From Escherichia phage vB_EcoS_ASO78B: DNA of 46,233 nt. Shown one piece after another: positions 7,885 through 20,478 of this stretch (positions are counted from its first letter, which is position 1; each line of letters begins with the position of its first letter). Both the position numbers and the translations under genes were made by a program. Below the pieces are notes generated by a model that ran no database searches, was not told the DNA's origin, and saw only the letters and a list, made by a program, of their open reading frames with translations. Where the stretch lies: sequence record MZ726796.1, one strand, 5' to 3'.

Positions 7885-8163
7885 ATGAAACTATCGCAAC
7901 GCGGCAAAGATACGCTTGGAATCGCCGATGCCGTGGATATATCGCCTTACATCACCACTGAGACAACGCAGAGTCAGTTTGATGCGATGACAAGTCTCGC
8001 CACCGACATTGGCATTGACGCTTTCCGCAAATCAACACTTCTGAGGAAACACAACCTTCGCTGCTTCTCGTGTGCGGTTGCACATTTCATCGTGTGGGGC
8101 GAGAAGACCGACAACAAAGCAAAACGCAAAGCTGAAAAAGAGGTTTACTGGTATGGCTATTAG
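7885..8163 (+). CDS. T4/P22-type (GH24) lysozyme-like protein lacking the catalytic N-terminal region
   Basis: residues 28-75 align to the C-terminal half of P22 gp19-type lysozymes (QxQ[FY]DA..SL...IG..AF..ST.LR..NL), but about 45 aa containing the catalytic region are missing; strong AGGAGG RBS. Confidence 0.5.
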   Translation: MKLSQRGKDTLGIADAVDISPYITTETTQSQFDAMTSLATDIGIDAFRKSTLLRKHNLRCFSCAVAHFIVWGEKTDNKAKRKAEKEVYWYGY

Positions 8164-8617
8164 CAAAAACATGAAGGCATTTCTGAATATGCTGGCGTAC
8201 AGTGAGGGCACGGATAACGGGCGGCAGAAAACCAATAATCATGGATATGATGTGATTGTTGGTGGCTCACTGTTTACCGACTATTCCGATCATCCGCGCA
8301 AGCTGATTAGCCTGCCTAAGCTGGGCATCAAATCCACTGCTGCAGGGCGCTATCAGGTGCTGGCTAAGTTTTATGACGCGTATAAAAAGCAGCTGCGCCT
8401 GCCTGACTTCTCTCCCGCATCACAGGACGCTATTGCAATGCAGCTAATCCGTGAATGCAAGGCCACTGCCGACATCGAGGCAGGGCGCATTGCTGATGCA
8501 ATCCATAAATGCCGCTCCCGCTGGGCTTCATTGCCGGGTGCTGGCTATGGTCAGCATGAGCAGAAGCTGGATAAGCTGATTCAGGTATACAAGGATGCTG
8601 GTGGGGCTGTGGCATGA
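8153..8617 (+). CDS. R: endolysin, lambda R-like lytic transglycosylase
   Basis: near-colinear match to lambda R: AFLNMLAYSEGTDNGRQKT.NHGYDVIVGG.LFTDYSDHPRKL, WASLPGAGYGQ.E. Confidence 0.9.
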   Translation: MAISKNMKAFLNMLAYSEGTDNGRQKTNNHGYDVIVGGSLFTDYSDHPRKLISLPKLGIKSTAAGRYQVLAKFYDAYKKQLRLPDFSPASQDAIAMQLIRECKATADIEAGRIADAIHKCRSRWASLPGAGYGQHEQKLDKLIQVYKDAGGAVA

Positions 8618-8853
8618 AAAAGTTAAGCAACTGGCTGCTCGGCGCGTGGATTTCGTTCTGTTCACTGCTGCAGCTATGGCCTGATGCAATGATGCATGTG
8701 TGGGTAATGATGCCGGATGACCTGAAAGCGGCGCTGCCTCCAATTGTGGTCAAGGGTGTGAGCTATTCAATCATGCTGGTTGGTATCCTCGGCAAGATGC
8801 ACGGCATGAGGAAGGAAAACCGGAGGCTGCGCAATAATGTCGATTCTCGCTAA
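8614..8853 (+). CDS. holin (putative, two TMDs)
   Basis: 79 aa, two hydrophobic segments and a basic C-tail; ATGA overlap with endolysin stop. Confidence 0.55.
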   Translation: MKKLSNWLLGAWISFCSLLQLWPDAMMHVWVMMPDDLKAALPPIVVKGVSYSIMLVGILGKMHGMRKENRRLRNNVDSR

Positions 8854-9325
8854 ATACTGGCGACCGTTGGCAATTATTATAATTGTTGTGCTCTGCGCGC
8901 TATGGGTGCGTGGCGAAATCATCAGCTACGGCGACCAGCGATACGCAGACGGATATGAAAAAGCCGTCGCAGACCAGAAGGCTGCAGACGAACAAGAGGA
9001 GCAACGACGCAATGCAGAACTGCAAAAGATTCAGGCCGACGCACGGCAAAGGATTGACGCTGCGCGCAATGATGCTGTCAATGCTGCTGCTAAGTCTGGC
9101 AGGTTGCAGCAACAACTCGCAAACATCCGCAAGCAGCTCGTCGGATATTCCACCACTGAGTCCATTGGCAACCCAGCCGCAGAAACCGGAGTTTTGCTCT
9201 CCGGCGTGCTCAGCAAATCTGTCGAAAGAAATCGACAACTGGCAGATTACGCTGACCGGGCAAGGGAAGCAGGACTAGCGTGTGAGGCGCAATACAATTC
9301 GCTGCGCAATAAAAAAGCCCCGTAA
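8837..9325 (+). CDS. i-spanin (Rz-like)
   Basis: N-terminal TMD LAIIIIVVLCALWV followed by a charged coiled-coil-like periplasmic domain; immediately downstream of endolysin and holin. Confidence 0.75.
   Translation: MSILAKYWRPLAIIIIVVLCALWVRGEIISYGDQRYADGYEKAVADQKAADEQEEQRRNAELQKIQADARQRIDAARNDAVNAAAKSGRLQQQLANIRKQLVGYSTTESIGNPAAETGVLLSGVLSKSVERNRQLADYADRAREAGLACEAQYNSLRNKKAP
9069..9278 (+). CDS. o-spanin (Rz1-like lipoprotein), nested in i-spanin +1 frame
   Basis: MMLSMLLLSLAGC lipobox then Pro/Ser-rich 69-aa product, entirely inside the Rz-like gene. Confidence 0.7.
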   Translation: MMLSMLLLSLAGCSNNSQTSASSSSDIPPLSPLATQPQKPEFCSPACSANLSKEIDNWQITLTGQGKQD

Positions 9326-18763: not shown

Positions 18764-19107
18764 TGTTTCTTTCCTAATGCTTTCTTGATAGATTCTTCAG
18801 CCAACAGCAATTCTTCTGGGTATTGCTCATTCCAGTTTTGTTTGTATGCCTTGCTAAGCATTTTTTGCAGAGCTTCAAGCAACTCAGGTGCTGCTGCCAT
18901 TAAATTAAAGTCATGTTCAACAGATGAATCAATTTCCCATCGCACTCCATTAAATTTGGCTCCCTTGTTTGAATAAGCAATATTGCGAGAATCATCCCTG
19001 TGACATCCTGGAGTGTCATCAATGCAACTGGCTGGGTAAATTGCTGCGCAACCTCCACGGATGTCTGCAACCCAAGGCCGTTTCGTACCTTTGAATTCAT
19101 CTTTCAT
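18760..19107 (-). CDS. hypothetical protein
   Basis: 115 aa, first gene of the operon. Confidence 0.45.
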   Translation of the reverse strand: MKDEFKGTKRPWVADIRGGCAAIYPASCIDDTPGCHRDDSRNIAYSNKGAKFNGVRWEIDSSVEHDFNLMAAAPELLEALQKMLSKAYKQNWNEQYPEELLLAEESIKKALGKKQ

Positions 19108-19146
19108 TTCATCACCTCTAACATTTATTGTTGTTTCTACGTCATC

Positions 19147-19175
19147 ACTATAAACGCCGCACCAATCTACGTCAA
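19147..19175 (-). promoter_or_regulatory. sigma70-like promoter for the ParB/clamp operon
   Basis: minus strand TTGACG, 17-nt spacer, TATAGT; overlaps two copies of the recurring motif. Confidence 0.45.
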
Positions 19176-19222
19176 CTGGAATATGCTAAAATCATGCTAA
19201 TCAAACAATAGGAGATTTAAAC

Positions 19223-19342
19223 ATGGGTTCAACAAACGGTCCGTCTCGTTCGCGCGCTACTGGCAACACCAAAGCTGGCGGCAAAACCGGCGCAGTGAAG
19301 CCAAACGGCTCCACCCGTTCACCATCGCGCGGTAAGAAATAA
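19223..19342 (+). CDS. small basic Gly/Ser-rich protein (39 aa)
   Basis: Hand-translated; AGGAG RBS 8 nt upstream; TAATG coupling to next gene. Confidence 0.3.
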   Translation: MGSTNGPSRSRATGNTKAGGKTGAVKPNGSTRSPSRGKK

Positions 19343-19782
19343 TGTTCGGCGCAGATATTGCCATCATGATCATGTATGTGCTGGGATTCGCCTGCACGGG
19401 CATGGTCGCGTTTCTGGTGTTCATTCCGGCAATGGCGATGTCTGCGTATCTTGGATGGGTGCTTGTTGATTCATTTCCCGCCGAATATCTGTATTACCTT
19501 GCGCAGTCTATGGTCTGGTTGCTTCCGGCTATTGCACTGCGCAAAAGTACAAAGATGGCGCTCTGCGTGCTGGCGATGAGCCTTTACGAATGGCTGGTTG
19601 CGATTGAGTCATTCGTATGGGAATTTATCACGCCTGTAGAAACGCCGCTTCATGCGCAGTACGCATTTATTATTATCGGCATCCATCTGTTCATCCTTTT
19701 CATCACTTTTAAATGGGGCGGCGAAATTGGACATTATTCTTGGCGTGGTCGCCATTGTTTTTTCGCTGATTCAAATCTATAA
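19342..19782 (+). CDS. integral membrane protein
   Basis: 146 aa with 4-5 hydrophobic helices. Confidence 0.45.
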   Translation: MFGADIAIMIMYVLGFACTGMVAFLVFIPAMAMSAYLGWVLVDSFPAEYLYYLAQSMVWLLPAIALRKSTKMALCVLAMSLYEWLVAIESFVWEFITPVETPLHAQYAFIIIGIHLFILFITFKWGGEIGHYSWRGRHCFFADSNL

Positions 19783-19814
19783 GTGCTGGAAACATATCAT
19801 CAGCGAGACTCGCA

Positions 19815-20099
19815 ATGAACGAAACACTAAGGCAGGCCGCAGAGCAGGTTATAAGCGGGACGACGGGGCAGGTGATTGACAAGGCCGGATACGCTTCTAT
19901 TGGCACAGGTATCGGCCTGAAAGTTGCAGAGCAAGCACCTGTCACGCAATCTTATTTTGAGGCTATGATTCCACACAGCCTGACAGAGTGGGCGGCAGTA
20001 GCGTCAATCCTCGGCGCTCTGTCTCTGGTAATAAAGAACCTGTTTGAAATGTGGTGGAAGGTACGGGAGTCGAAGAAAAATGGCAGCACCAACACCTGA
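19815..20099 (+). CDS. membrane-anchored protein
   Basis: 94 aa with C-terminal TMD and basic tail; weak RBS. Confidence 0.35.
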   Translation: MNETLRQAAEQVISGTTGQVIDKAGYASIGTGIGLKVAEQAPVTQSYFEAMIPHSLTEWAAVASILGALSLVIKNLFEMWWKVRESKKNGSTNT

Positions 20100-20478
20100 A
20101 GAATTAGTAAGCCAGATGGCATCCCGTGGAATGACTATCACCACAACCGATGCGTCTGGCGTTCTGTGCCTTGTGGCGTCAATCAGTGAATGCCTTGAGC
20201 TGAACTACCCAAATGATGAATGCCGACAAAATGCGATCATGCTGTGGGCTTCAATCCTGATTAGCGCAAATACCGCAGGGCGCTACGTTACCAGTCAGAG
20301 CGCACCGTCTGGCGCATCACAATCATTCGCGTATGGCAGCAAGCCGTGGGTGGCGCTGTACAATCAGATGAAACTACTGGATACAGCAGGATGCACTGGT
20401 GATTTAGTGGAAGACCCTGACGGAAGCGGCAAGCCGTGGTTTGCGGTTGTGCGTGGTTCACGTTGCGGAGGTAGATAA
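20080..20478 (+). CDS. head-tail connector / adaptor protein (putative)
   Basis: about 133 aa from MAAPTPEEL; positional call. Confidence 0.35.
   Translation: MAAPTPEELVSQMASRGMTITTTDASGVLCLVASISECLELNYPNDECRQNAIMLWASILISANTAGRYVTSQSAPSGASQSFAYGSKPWVALYNQMKLLDTAGCTGDLVEDPDGSGKPWFAVVRGSRCGGR

What the first reader, a model, noticed from the sequence alone, without database searches (positions are those of the whole stretch)
19342..20099. Membrane-protein cluster in overlapping frames upstream of neck genes
Three overlapping reading frames encode a polytopic membrane protein (146 aa), a possible 50-aa single-TM peptide and a 94-aa protein with a C-terminal TMD and basic tail. The 94-aa protein has holin-like topology although the lysis cassette is elsewhere. 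A frameshift or sequencing error, an antiholin/second holin, or an injection-related membrane protein are all possible.
Basis: inference. Interest (0 to 1): 0.35.

Follow-up and report, generated by a model that had tools for sequence, protein, structure and literature searches.

The report
Conserved overlapping holin-like membrane genes
Three small membrane-protein genes written in three overlapping reading frames at the head of this phage's neck-and-tail operon are all real; the 50-residue one is missing from public annotations, and the 94-residue one looks like a distant cousin of the phage T7 holin, so the cluster is probably an accessory lysis-timing device and not a sequencing error.

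Summary
The window is a Skatevirus/E1-like siphophage, about 95% identical to Bas81, Skate, Akira and seszw. ORFs of 146 aa (19342-19782), 50 aa (TTG, 19727-19879) and 94 aa (19815-20099) lie in three frames, and the 50-aa ORF bridges the other two. The 50-aa ORF is a real gene that inspected records leave unannotated. It is open, TTG-initiated and preceded by an invariant SD-like GGGGCGGCGAAA in 82 related loci. It stands alone in lineages that lack the 146-aa gene. Its frame alone shows purifying selection (pS 0.63-0.91 vs pN 0.11-0.35). Even 23-43%-identical relatives of the 94-aa protein carry a small TM ORF overlapping their start. The 94-aa family resembles class II holins, best the T7 gp17.5 family (hhalign 60%, E 9e-5; 0/120 hydropathy-preserving shuffles reach it), but is below Pfam thresholds. 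Most homologues sit just upstream of the DUF7370 neck gene. Two remote ones end a lysis cassette. A canonical lysis cassette lies at about 8150-9325. In genome-reduced seszw mutants the 146-aa gene and the small ORF's start are dispensable. Frameshift or sequencing error is rejected, and so is the 'lipoprotein' label. A lysis-timing function is inferred, not shown.

The parts
19184..19192 (+). Extended -10 promoter-like element TGCTAAAAT in the divergent intergenic region; presumed start of the rightward operon
   Evidence: Read from the sequence. The equivalent TGATAAAAT is present in Klebsiella phage ZC2 and TGATACAAT in L082. The consensus scan found no full -35/-10 site on the + strand. 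Inference only.
19223..19342 (+). 39-aa very basic Gly/Ser/Thr/Pro-rich ORF (9 K/R, no D/E), first gene of the operon in Skate-like phages
   Evidence: phrog_34767 at E 6e-25; annotated in Bas81 and Skate; present only in loci that also carry the 146-aa gene. Function unknown.
19342..19782 (+). p146: polytopic inner-membrane protein (4 predicted TM helices), an optional accessory member of the module; its last ~19 codons are an unconstrained tail overlapped by the small gene
   Evidence: phrog_14688 at E 4e-93. TMHMM 4 TM in the E1 record. Homologues at 49-76% identity in L005, L075, L084 and L089. Absent from Roufvirus, L082, L087, L088, L090 and L092. Cys18 of the supposed lipobox is not conserved. 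The tail has dN/dS of about 0.75-2.1 in its own frame and AF2 pLDDT below 50. Deleted in about 52 viable seszw mutants.
19715..19726 (+). SD-like translation-initiation element GGGGCGGCGAAA of the small gene (it also encodes KWGGE of p146)
   Evidence: GG(C/T)GGCGAAA is invariant in all 78 loci and in L082-L085, including lineages where it is intergenic. The anti-SD duplex is -7.0 kcal/mol, against -3.6 for p94 and -3.0 for p146.
19727..19879 (+). Small gene: 50-aa single-pass membrane peptide, TTG start, N-terminal TM (about residues 2-19), conserved Y-K/R-C-W-K-x-I-I...NER juxtamembrane motif, variable basic tail; not annotated in the records inspected
   Evidence: Open with a TTG start in 78/78 loci, always 88 nt upstream of the p94 ATG. 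Stands alone in phages lacking p146. pS 0.63-0.91 vs pN 0.11-0.35 in this frame only. Third-codon-position excess 240 vs 122 and 121, p=2e-4. Small TM ORFs sit upstream of all remote p94 homologues examined. No CDS in the Bas81, Skate, E1, ZC2, pYD38-A or CF-SP1 records. One cluster in 5.8 billion.
19815..20099 (+). p94: class-II-holin-like membrane protein. It has an invariant GQVIDKAGYxSIGTG motif, a weakly hydrophobic Gly-rich segment (about 24-40), a strong TMD (about 56-78) and a basic C-terminal tail
   Evidence: phrog_13738 at E 4e-60. Family alignments A1 and A2. 27 representatives at E<=1e-3 among 1.84 billion. Hydropathy parallels S21. hhalign vs the T7 gp17.5 family: 60%, E 8.7e-5, 0/120 local shuffles. 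hhalign vs the S21 family: 28-38%. AF2 helix 56-89 has pLDDT 82-92. The 3' two-thirds is retained in all 70 host-less (mainly seszw) records.
20080..20478 (+). DUF7370 protein (neck/head-completion region), start overlaps the p94 stop by 20 nt; conserved downstream neighbour, context only
   Evidence: PF24085 at E 3.7e-36 and phrog_786. Follows the p94 homologue in Skate, Roufvirus, L082, L084, L087, L088, L089 and L090. A tail-terminator family (PF23842) lies three or four genes downstream.

Best explanation
The region encodes a conserved inner-membrane gene module written in overlapping frames. The core is a pair of genes. The first is a 36-55-aa peptide (50 aa here) with an N-terminal transmembrane helix and a basic cytoplasmic tail. 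It is translated from its own strong SD and a weak TTG start. The second is a ~90-115-aa protein (94 aa here) built like a class II holin: a weakly hydrophobic glycine-rich first segment, a strongly hydrophobic second helix and a charged C-terminal tail. A polytopic protein (146 aa here) is an optional third member placed upstream. Its 3' end was overprinted onto the start of the small gene. I propose that p94 is a diverged T7-gp17.5-type holin-like protein that accumulates in the cytoplasmic membrane together with the structural proteins. I further propose that the small peptide, and p146 where present, are its partners or regulators (antiholin- or co-holin-like). Under this view the module tunes membrane permeabilisation and lysis timing alongside the canonical holin-endolysin-spanin cassette 11 kb away. 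Shown here: the genes are real, overlapping, conserved and membrane-type, and p146 plus the small gene are dispensable in the laboratory. Inferred: the holin relationship (moderate support), the partnership of the proteins, and any role in lysis.
For: - **The small gene is real.**
  - It has an invariant TTG and SD and an open frame in 82 loci.
  - It stands alone where p146 is absent.
  - Purifying selection acts only in its frame.
  - Its SD duplex of -7.0 kcal/mol is the strongest of the three genes.
- **The pair is ancient.** Every remote p94 homologue inspected (23-43% identity; L086-L094) has a small TM ORF overlapping its start. Two of these were called by gene finders.
- **The three-frame trio recurs with non-homologous polytopic proteins** in L091, L093 and L094.
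- **p94 looks like a holin.**
  - The only annotated families hit by family members are holins: PF04971 in 7/31 members, PF16080, PF10746, and phrog_20 (best E 1.4e-6), 4237, 1350 and 920.
  - hhalign vs a T7 gp17.5 family profile gives 60% probability, E 8.7e-5 and score 27.2. Local-8 shuffles give a mean of 10.9 and a maximum of 22.0 (0/120 reach the observed score).
  - Negative controls: P2 holin Y gives 2.4%, and the reversed profile gives 0.1%.
  - The hydropathy profile parallels S21, including a Gly-rich segment as weakly hydrophobic as S21 TMD1 (KD 0.42 vs 0.37).
- **Some genomic contexts are lysis contexts.**
  - In L091 and L093 the trio closes a lysis cassette (Peptidase_M15_4 or Amidase_2 endolysin plus a 3-TM holin).
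  - In L092 the pair lies just upstream of the terminase genes.
  - T7's own holin lies between the tail fibre and small terminase genes, far from its lysozyme.
  - P2's holin lies between head-completion and tail genes.
- **Dispensability fits a timing modulator.** About 52 viable CiPGr seszw mutants lack 19342-19774, and one lacks 19308-19899 (PMC9825161).
Against: - **No family membership.** No member reaches any holin family's curated threshold. The window protein scores 13.7 bits vs a cut-off of 26 for PF04971.
- **The profile match is partial.** The similarity covers only the TMD and tail (about 40 columns). For the S21 family, 6/100 hydropathy-preserving shuffles do as well.
- **TMHMM sees one helix.** In the E1 record only one TM helix is predicted in p94. 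The Gly-rich segment contains D22, K23 and K36.
- **No second holin is needed.** The phage already has a complete cassette with a soluble lambda-R-type endolysin, a 79-aa holin and Rz/Rz1.
- **In most lineages the neighbour is a neck gene.** p94 is translationally linked to the DUF7370 neck gene rather than to an endolysin.
- **p94 was never fully lost.** None of the 70 host-less (mainly seszw) records lacks the p94 3' part, although 65% of seszw genes are removable (PMC9825161). That would be odd for a redundant holin, though deletion may be polar on DUF7370.
- **No experimental data exist** for any member.
Confidence: 0.42

Rival explanations
1. The genes are host-takeover or superinfection-exclusion 'moron' membrane proteins (like HK97 gp15, T4 Imm/Sp or P22 SieA). 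They would sit in the inner membrane and block DNA entry of competing phages or modify the envelope, with no role in lysis.
For: PHROGs files phrog_13738 under 'moron, auxiliary metabolic gene and host takeover'. p146 is sporadic, is replaced by non-homologous polytopic proteins and is dispensable in the laboratory. Positions at operon starts or just after lysis cassettes (L091, L093) are typical moron sites. The resemblance to holins is below family thresholds.
Against: The small-plus-p94 pair is not sporadic. It holds a fixed position across genera down to 23% identity and is translationally linked to a core neck gene. It was retained in all 70 host-less (mainly seszw) records. No PADLOC or NCBIfam hit. 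These phages carry a separately annotated Imm-type gene.
Confidence: 0.2
2. p94, with the small peptide, is functionally tied to virion head-tail joining. It could be a membrane anchor or assembly factor for neck/tail completion. Alternatively it could be a hydrophobic virion protein released at infection to help DNA cross the inner membrane.
For: In Skatevirus, Roufvirus and five further lineages the gene directly precedes, and usually overlaps, the DUF7370 neck gene. It lies between the major capsid gene and the tail-terminator gene. p94 was never fully deleted in the 70 host-less (mainly seszw) records.
Against: In L091, L093, L092 and L094 the module occurs without DUF7370 or neck genes. 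In the viable mutant seszw_180S the first 28 residues of p94 are replaced by foreign sequence. No similarity to any solved virion protein. The Skate annotators cite E1 mass-spectrometry evidence for the major tail protein only. The E1 paper itself could not be read.
Confidence: 0.15
3. The small ORF is only a regulatory upstream ORF. On this reading its translation, not its product, controls initiation at the weak p94 ribosome-binding site.
For: The small ORF always overlaps the p94 start (by 17-68 nt). It has a stronger SD (-7.0) than p94 (-3.6) and a weak TTG start. Its C-terminal ~20 residues are unconstrained.
Against: Residues 1-29 are under clear purifying selection at the amino-acid level. 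They always form a hydrophobic helix followed by a basic juxtamembrane stretch, even where the sequence has diverged beyond recognition. That is not expected for a pure leader. A coupling role may still coexist with a functional peptide.
Confidence: 0.06
4. The overlap is an artefact: a sequencing error or frameshift has split one gene, or a programmed +1 frameshift fuses p146 to the TM helix encoded in the small frame.
For: Three frames are used within 760 nt. The p146 tail looks non-functional.
Against: The identical layout occurs in more than 80 independently sequenced genomes and metagenomic contigs. The small ORF has its own conserved SD and TTG, and it is free-standing in Roufvirus, L082, L087, L088, L090 and L092, where no upstream gene exists. 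p146 and p94 are separate PHROG families, each matched end to end.
Confidence: 0.01

Closest known systems
Phage T7 gp17.5 (class II holin, Pfam PF10746 Phage_holin_2_2, holin superfamily II)
   Same: Both are small proteins with an N-proximal Gly/Ala-rich weakly hydrophobic stretch (T7 PIVGTGVADV; here SIGTGIGLKV), an S-L-N/T-E-W motif entering a strong TMD, and a Lys-rich C-terminal tail. This is the best profile-profile match (60%, E 8.7e-5). Both genes are encoded inside the late structural/packaging gene block, far from the endolysin gene.
   Different: p94 is 27 residues longer, with a conserved IDKxGY motif and a longer inter-segment loop. It is below Pfam thresholds. It is accompanied by an overlapping small TM gene that is not annotated next to T7 17.5. 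The phage also has another holin in a canonical cassette.
Phage 21 S21 pinholin/antiholin (S21-68/S21-71, Pfam PF04971)
   Same: The hydropathy architecture is the same: a SAR-like TMD1 of equal weak hydrophobicity, then TMD2, then a K/R-rich tail. The TMD2-tail segment aligns (WAAxxxxLGxL...KxRExxK). The logic of a holin controlled by a second TM element is shared.
   Different: In S21 the inhibitor is the protein's own TMD1 plus a dual-start isoform. Here the candidate regulator is a separate peptide encoded in another frame. The S21 similarity does not clearly exceed a hydropathy-preserving null (6/100). The endolysin here has no SAR signal, so a pinholin is not required.
Phage P2 lysis-timing genes Y and lysA, embedded between head-completion (L) and tail-completion (R, S) genes
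   Same: Membrane lysis genes are embedded in the head/tail completion operon. A non-essential ~140-aa polytopic membrane protein (LysA) modulates timing next to a holin (annotation).
   Different: There is no sequence relationship: p146 vs LysA gives 0.2% and p94 vs Y gives 2.4%. In P2 the endolysin lies in the same block; here it does not.
Rz/Rz1 spanin genes (overlapping or embedded genes in different frames within lysis cassettes)
   Same: This is the precedent for two lysis membrane proteins encoded in overlapping frames. The window itself has such a pair at 8837-9325.
   Different: The small peptide has no lipobox and no outer-membrane signal. p94 has no periplasmic coiled-coil. The phage's genuine Rz/Rz1 pair is elsewhere.

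Membership tests
Holin superfamily II (Pfam PF04971 S21-type, PF10746 T7-type, PF16080 HP1-type) | Sequence scores above the family's curated (gathering) threshold | tested here: not met
   The window p94 scores 13.7 bits vs a cut-off of 26 for PF04971. Among 31 family members, 7 hit PF04971 (best E 1e-3), 2 hit PF16080 and 1 hits PF10746, all below threshold.
Holin superfamily II (T7 gp17.5 type) | Profile-profile similarity beyond what TM composition and hydropathy order explain | tested here: inconclusive
   Against the T7 family: 60% probability, E 8.7e-5, score 27.2, 0/120 local-8 shuffles reach it (maximum 22.0), 0/40 global shuffles, reversed profile 0.1%. Against the S21 family: 28-38%, and 6/100 local shuffles reach it. 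The match covers only ~40 C-terminal columns.
Class II holins | Small protein with two TMDs (N-in, C-in) and a highly charged C-terminal cytoplasmic tail | tested here: inconclusive
   The strong TMD at about 56-78 and the basic tail are present. The first segment (about 24-40) is as weakly hydrophobic as S21 TMD1 (KD 0.42 vs 0.37) but contains K36 and is flanked by D22 and K23. TMHMM in the E1 record calls one helix only.
Holins in general | Gene adjacent to, or co-transcribed with, an endolysin gene | tested here: not met
   In the window the endolysin is 11 kb away, next to another holin. The same holds in L090. Two remote homologues do lie at the end of endolysin-containing cassettes (L091, L093).
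Holins in general | Forms lethal membrane lesions at a programmed time; complements a holin-defective phage | not testable with these tools
   This needs expression and complementation experiments.
Antiholins (for the small peptide and p146) | Binds the holin and delays triggering | not testable with these tools
   Only indirect support: obligatory gene pairing and overlap, and dispensability.
Bacterial lipoproteins (current database label of p146) | Conserved lipobox Cys after a signal peptide with a basic n-region | tested here: not met
   Cys18 is Phe or Tyr in the L005, L089 and L075 homologues. The N-terminus is acidic (MFGAD). The protein has 4 TM helices. The label stems from a PROSITE PS00013 pattern hit in the E1 record.
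Rz/Rz1-type spanins | An inner-membrane protein with a periplasmic coiled-coil plus an outer-membrane lipoprotein | tested here: not met
   No lipobox in the small peptide or p94. The genuine Rz (8837-9325) and embedded Rz1 (LAGC lipobox) lie elsewhere in the window.
Programmed ribosomal frameshift products | The downstream frame lacks independent initiation signals and depends on the upstream ORF | tested here: not met
   The small ORF has its own invariant SD and TTG, and it stands alone in lineages without any upstream ORF.

The most novel reading that the evidence does not exclude
The small peptide and p94 form a previously unrecognised two-component membrane device that is functionally coupled to head-tail joining. 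Its near-universal translational linkage to the DUF7370 neck gene would reflect a checkpoint that links completion of virions to membrane permeabilisation and lysis triggering. It would then be a distinct, widespread class of overprinted lysis regulators (small TM peptide plus T7-like holin relative), not merely a redundant second holin.
Probability: 0.1. Interest if true: 0.8.

Novelty: new variant of a known kind. Interest (0 to 1): 0.45.

Why it matters
First, the small gene is conserved and selected but almost never annotated: one protein cluster among 5.8 billion for the Skatevirus form. Several hundred deposited Skatevirus, Roufvirus and related genomes should probably gain it, and the 'lipoprotein' label of its neighbour should be dropped. 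Second, the three-frame overprinting of membrane genes has been kept across lineages that share only 23-43% identity, and it has been rebuilt with unrelated polytopic partners. This is a clean natural example of overlapping-gene evolution, with measurable hand-over of selective constraint from one frame to the next. Third, if the pair is a holin-like protein with a trans-acting TM regulator, it adds a new genetic format for lysis control beside dual-start motifs and separate antiholins. It would also help explain why many phages carry 'extra' holin-like genes in structural operons. These phages (Bas77-81, seszw, Skate) are tractable on E. coli K-12 and Salmonella and are used in therapy and biocontrol work, so lysis-timing determinants have practical value.

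Tried and rejected
- **Family libraries.**
  - Pfam, PHROGs, NCBIfam and PADLOC scans of the window proteins gave only self-families or sub-threshold hits.
  - PDB sequence searches with the p94 family profile, the DUF7370 protein and its profile found nothing significant. The best was 7kln 'head completion protein gp1' at E 0.28.
- **Structure prediction.**
  - AlphaFold2 of p94 (mean pLDDT 64.5; only helix 56-89 confident) and of p146 (mean 61.2) was too weak for fold searches, so none were run.
- **Other homology tests.**
  - The P2 LysA/Y analogy was tested and rejected as homology (0.2% and 2.4%).
  - S21 homology looked striking by eye but did not clearly beat a hydropathy-preserving shuffle (6/100). 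It is reported as architectural similarity only.
  - BLASTP of p94 vs T7 gp17.5 is not significant (E 0.32).
- **Other signals in the DNA.**
  - The terminator-like hairpin at 19741-19754 inside the small ORF is not conserved in ZC2 and was dismissed.
  - Rfam found no RNA family in 19050-20250.
- **Literature and mutant data.**
  - The E1 virion mass-spectrometry paper (PMC2293211) and the CiPGr supplementary tables are not held. Virion association and the formal 'removable gene' status of p94 could therefore not be read directly.
  - I checked whether the cassette holin is deleted in seszw mutants, which would have implied compensation by p94. It is retained in all 70 host-less records.
  - The non-conserved upstream ATG at 19652 (75-aa version) was rejected as the start because CF-SP1 and Roufvirus lack it.
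Full report
**What the window is**

The 1.4-kb stretch around the finding is 95% identical to Escherichia phage TanjaMuster_Bas81 and to Salmonella phages Akira, Skate and seszw. It matches 203 phage records in all. These are Skatevirus/E1-like siphoviruses of 45-48 kb.

The finding lies just right of a divergent intergenic region. To the left, on the minus strand, are a ParB-like gene and a RusA gene. To the right, on the plus strand, an operon runs through DUF7370, several small neck-type genes and an HK97-gp10-like gene to the major tail protein.

**The observation**

| ORF | Coordinates | Length | Start | Frame |
|---|---|---|---|---|
| p146 | 19342-19782 | 146 aa | ATG | 1 |
| small ORF | 19727-19879 | 50 aa | TTG | 2 |
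| p94 | 19815-20099 | 94 aa | ATG | 0 |

- p146 and p94 do not overlap each other. The small ORF bridges them.
- Hydropathy analysis and the TMHMM features deposited with phage E1 agree that these are membrane proteins. TMHMM gives 4 helices in the p146 homologue and 1 helix at residues 59-81 of the p94 homologue.
- The small product has a hydrophobic helix at about residues 2-19, followed by a basic tail.
- A canonical lysis cassette lies elsewhere. It comprises a lambda-R-like soluble endolysin (about 8150-8617), a 79-aa two-TMD holin (8614-8853, DUF7940) and Rz (8837-9325) with an embedded Rz1 carrying an LAGC lipobox.

**Is the 50-aa ORF a gene?**

It is not annotated in the Bas81, Skate, E1, ZC2, pYD38-A or CF-SP1 records. 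Only one protein cluster (two sequences) among 5.8 billion matches it. Four lines of evidence nevertheless say it is real.

1. **Conserved frame and start signals.**
   - In 78 of 78 related loci the frame is open and starts with TTG exactly 88 nt upstream of the p94 ATG.
   - It is preceded by an invariant GG(C/T)GGCGAAA.
   - Four further loci from two more lineages show the same.
2. **It stands alone where p146 is absent.** Roufvirus-type Klebsiella, Vibrio and Aeromonas phages and the L082/L083 lineage lack p146 altogether. They keep the small ORF as a free-standing first gene with the same TTG and SD. This rules out a split gene or a frameshift product.
3. **Selection acts only in its frame.**
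   - I examined the 81 nt not shared with p94. In the small frame, pS is 0.63-0.91 and pN is 0.11-0.35.
   - The p146 frame and the third frame show dN/dS of about 0.75-2.1.
   - Across six lineages, pairwise differences fall 122, 121 and 240 on codon positions 1, 2 and 3 (binomial p=2e-4).
   - Constraint hands over from one frame to the next. The p146 tail varies at the small gene's wobble positions. The stretch shared with p94 varies at p94's wobble positions. So residues 1-29 of the peptide are selected and its last ~20 residues are free.
4. **Its ribosome-binding site is good.** The predicted anti-SD duplex is -7.0 kcal/mol, as good as those of neighbouring genes. It is better than those of p146 (-3.0) and p94 (-3.6).

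The conserved C-terminal 'KWGGEIG' of p146 is simply this SD-plus-TTG read in another frame. No Rfam family explains the conserved nucleotides.

**How old is the arrangement?**

A profile of the p94 family found 27 representatives at E<=1e-3 among 1.84 billion proteins. I retrieved contigs for nine remote members (23-43% identity).

- **The small ORF is always there.** Every contig has a 36-55-aa ORF with an N-terminal hydrophobic helix and a basic juxtamembrane stretch overlapping the start of the p94-like gene. The start codon is TTG or ATG. Two of these ORFs had been called by gene finders (L090, 49 aa; L092, 46 aa, with ...YNCAKHVINRIKEDER, clearly related to ...YKCWKHIISETRNER here).
- **The polytopic member is optional.**
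  - A p146 homologue (53% identity) precedes the pair in L089.
  - In L091, L093 and L094 a polytopic protein precedes the pair in the same three-frame layout. The L091 protein shows no detectable similarity to p146.
- **Conclusion.** The core is the small-peptide/p94 pair. A polytopic partner has been added repeatedly, overprinting the start of the small gene.

**What is p94?**

Within Skatevirus and Roufvirus the motif GQVIDKAGYxSIGTG, W59-A-A, and the K74/F77/E78/W81/K82/R84 positions are invariant.

- **Family hits.** The window protein itself hits only its own PHROG (phrog_13738, 'membrane protein'). Across 31 family members, the only other annotated families hit are holins:
  - PF04971 (S21) in 7 members;
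  - PF16080 (HP1) in 2 members;
  - PF10746 (T7) in 1 member;
  - phrog_20, 4237, 1350 and 920.

  All of these are below curated thresholds.
- **Hydropathy.** The profile is the S21 profile: a Gly/Ala/Ser/Thr-rich segment no more hydrophobic than S21's SAR-like TMD1, then a strong TMD, then a basic tail.
- **Profile-profile tests.**

| Comparison with the p94 family profile | hhalign probability | Controls |
|---|---|---|
| S21 family | 28-38% (E 3-6e-4) | 6/100 shuffles preserving local hydropathy reach it |
| T7 gp17.5 family (9 Autographiviridae holins) | 60% (E 8.7e-5, score 27.2) | local shuffles: mean 10.9, maximum 22.0 (0/120 reach it); 0/40 global shuffles reach it; reversed profile 0.1% |
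| P2 holin Y | 2.4% | none run |

  - The S21 match is therefore architectural and not proof of homology.
  - The T7 alignment covers the S-L-N/T-E-W juxtamembrane motif, the TMD and the tail.
- **Structure.** AlphaFold2 is confident only for helix 56-89.
- **Verdict.** I regard p94 as a probable, but not proven, distant relative of T7-type class II holins. It is not a member by any curated criterion.

**Genomic context**

- In Skatevirus, Roufvirus, L082, L084, L087, L088, L089 and L090 the next gene, usually overlapping the p94-like stop, is DUF7370. A tail terminator lies three or four genes downstream, and where the upstream region is visible the capsid genes lie upstream. These phages keep their lysis genes elsewhere.
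- In L091 and L093 the trio instead closes a lysis cassette containing an M15 or Amidase_2 endolysin and a 3-TM holin.
- In L092 the pair lies two genes upstream of the terminase genes.
- Holins embedded in structural blocks have precedents: T7 17.5 between the tail fibre and small terminase genes, and P2 Y between head-completion and tail genes.

**Dispensability**

The 'Salmonella phage seszw' records are CRISPR-generated genome-reduced mutants (PMC9825161).

- Clone seszw_60S lacks 19342-19774, that is p146 plus the TTG and TM helix of the small gene.
- Clone seszw_180S lacks 19308-19899 and carries an in-frame fusion of the 39-aa ORF to residues 29-94 of p94.
- Of the 70 records that name no host (mainly the seszw set), only 18 retain the p146 interior, but all 70 retain the 3' two-thirds of p94. 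All 70 also retain the cassette holin.
- So p146 and the small peptide are non-essential in culture, as lysis-timing modulators usually are. p94 was never fully lost. That could mean it matters, or only that its deletion is polar on DUF7370.

**Mechanism proposed**

This section is inference. Transcription probably starts at an extended -10 element at 19184-19192 and produces the operon's leader genes. The small peptide would insert N-out/C-in. p94 would insert with its strong TMD out-to-in and its basic tail in the cytoplasm, and its Gly-rich segment would be either membrane-embedded or released, as in S21.

The obligatory overlap, the strong SD with a weak TTG for the peptide, and the weak SD of p94 would fix the ratio and the co-localisation of the two products. 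I propose that the peptide (and p146 where present) restrains or assists a T7-type holin-like p94. The module would then adjust when the membrane is permeabilised, alongside the cassette holin. I put this at about 0.4.

**Rivals**

- Superinfection-exclusion or moron membrane proteins: about 0.2.
- A neck-assembly or ejection role, suggested by the DUF7370 linkage: about 0.15.
- A purely regulatory upstream ORF: about 0.06.
- An artefact or programmed frameshift: about 0.01.

**Corrections to existing annotation**

The 'lipoprotein' label of p146 comes from a PROSITE pattern hit in the E1 record. The Cys is not conserved and the protein is polytopic. The small gene should be added to the annotation.

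**Novelty and score**

The components are of known kinds: holin-like proteins, small TM regulators and overprinted genes. The conserved three-frame module, its unannotated small member and its habitual position in front of the neck genes appear undescribed in the annotation and literature I could search. I rate it a new variant of a known kind, with interest 0.45.

Noticed in passing
window 19223-19342: A 39-aa ORF with 9 Lys/Arg, no acidic residues and a Gly/Ser/Thr/Pro-rich composition (phrog_34767). It occurs only in loci that also carry p146. A crude codon-position count was confounded by indels.
   Followed up: partly
window 19342-19782 (p146); E1 record L097 3631-4071: The 'lipoprotein' product name now spread through PHROGs and many GenBank records traces to a PROSITE PS00013 pattern and a SignalP 2.0 call in phage E1. 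The Cys is Phe or Tyr in homologues, and the protein has 4 TM helices.
   Followed up: yes
window 8150-9325: A complete lysis cassette. It comprises a lambda-R-like soluble endolysin, a 79-aa two-TMD protein (Pfam DUF7940, annotated as holin) and Rz, with an embedded Rz1 (LAGC lipobox, about 9069-9278) in another frame.
   Followed up: partly
L081 (MZ375330.1, seszw_180S) 1524-1808: A viable genome-reduced mutant carries an in-frame fusion of the first ~28 codons of the 39-aa basic ORF to residues 29-94 of p94. So p94's N-terminal 28 residues are dispensable, or p94 function is.
   Followed up: partly
L091 2398-2880 and L093 1545-2042: Two ~160-aa polytopic proteins resemble each other by eye. 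The L091 protein shows no detectable similarity to p146, yet both occupy the same position and overlap the small TM ORF in the same way. This suggests repeated recruitment of a polytopic partner.
   Followed up: partly
window 19147-19192: The divergent control region holds a minus-strand sigma-70-like promoter (TTGACG-17-TATAGT, 19175-19147). It overlaps a plus-strand extended -10 (TGCTAAAAT, 19184-19192) that is conserved in Roufvirus and L082.
   Followed up: partly
window 19741-19764: A terminator-like hairpin plus T-run (TGGCGTGGTCGCCA TTGTTTTTTC) lies inside the TM-coding part of the small gene. It is not conserved in Klebsiella phage ZC2, so it is probably fortuitous.
   Followed up: partly
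database records P0003 and H37 (OR544125.1): Near-identical copies of this phage region are labelled 'Staphylococcus aureus' (a TPA protein, 96% identical to p94) and 'Acinetobacter phage vB_AbaM_AB4P2' (93.9% DNA identity). These are probably mislabelled or contaminant records.
   Followed up: no
window 20080-20478: DUF7370 shows a weak Pfam co-hit to E217_gp27 in L088 and a non-significant PDB hit to a 'head completion protein gp1' (7kln, E 0.28). It is likely a head-tail adaptor-type protein, but this is unproven.
   Followed up: partly
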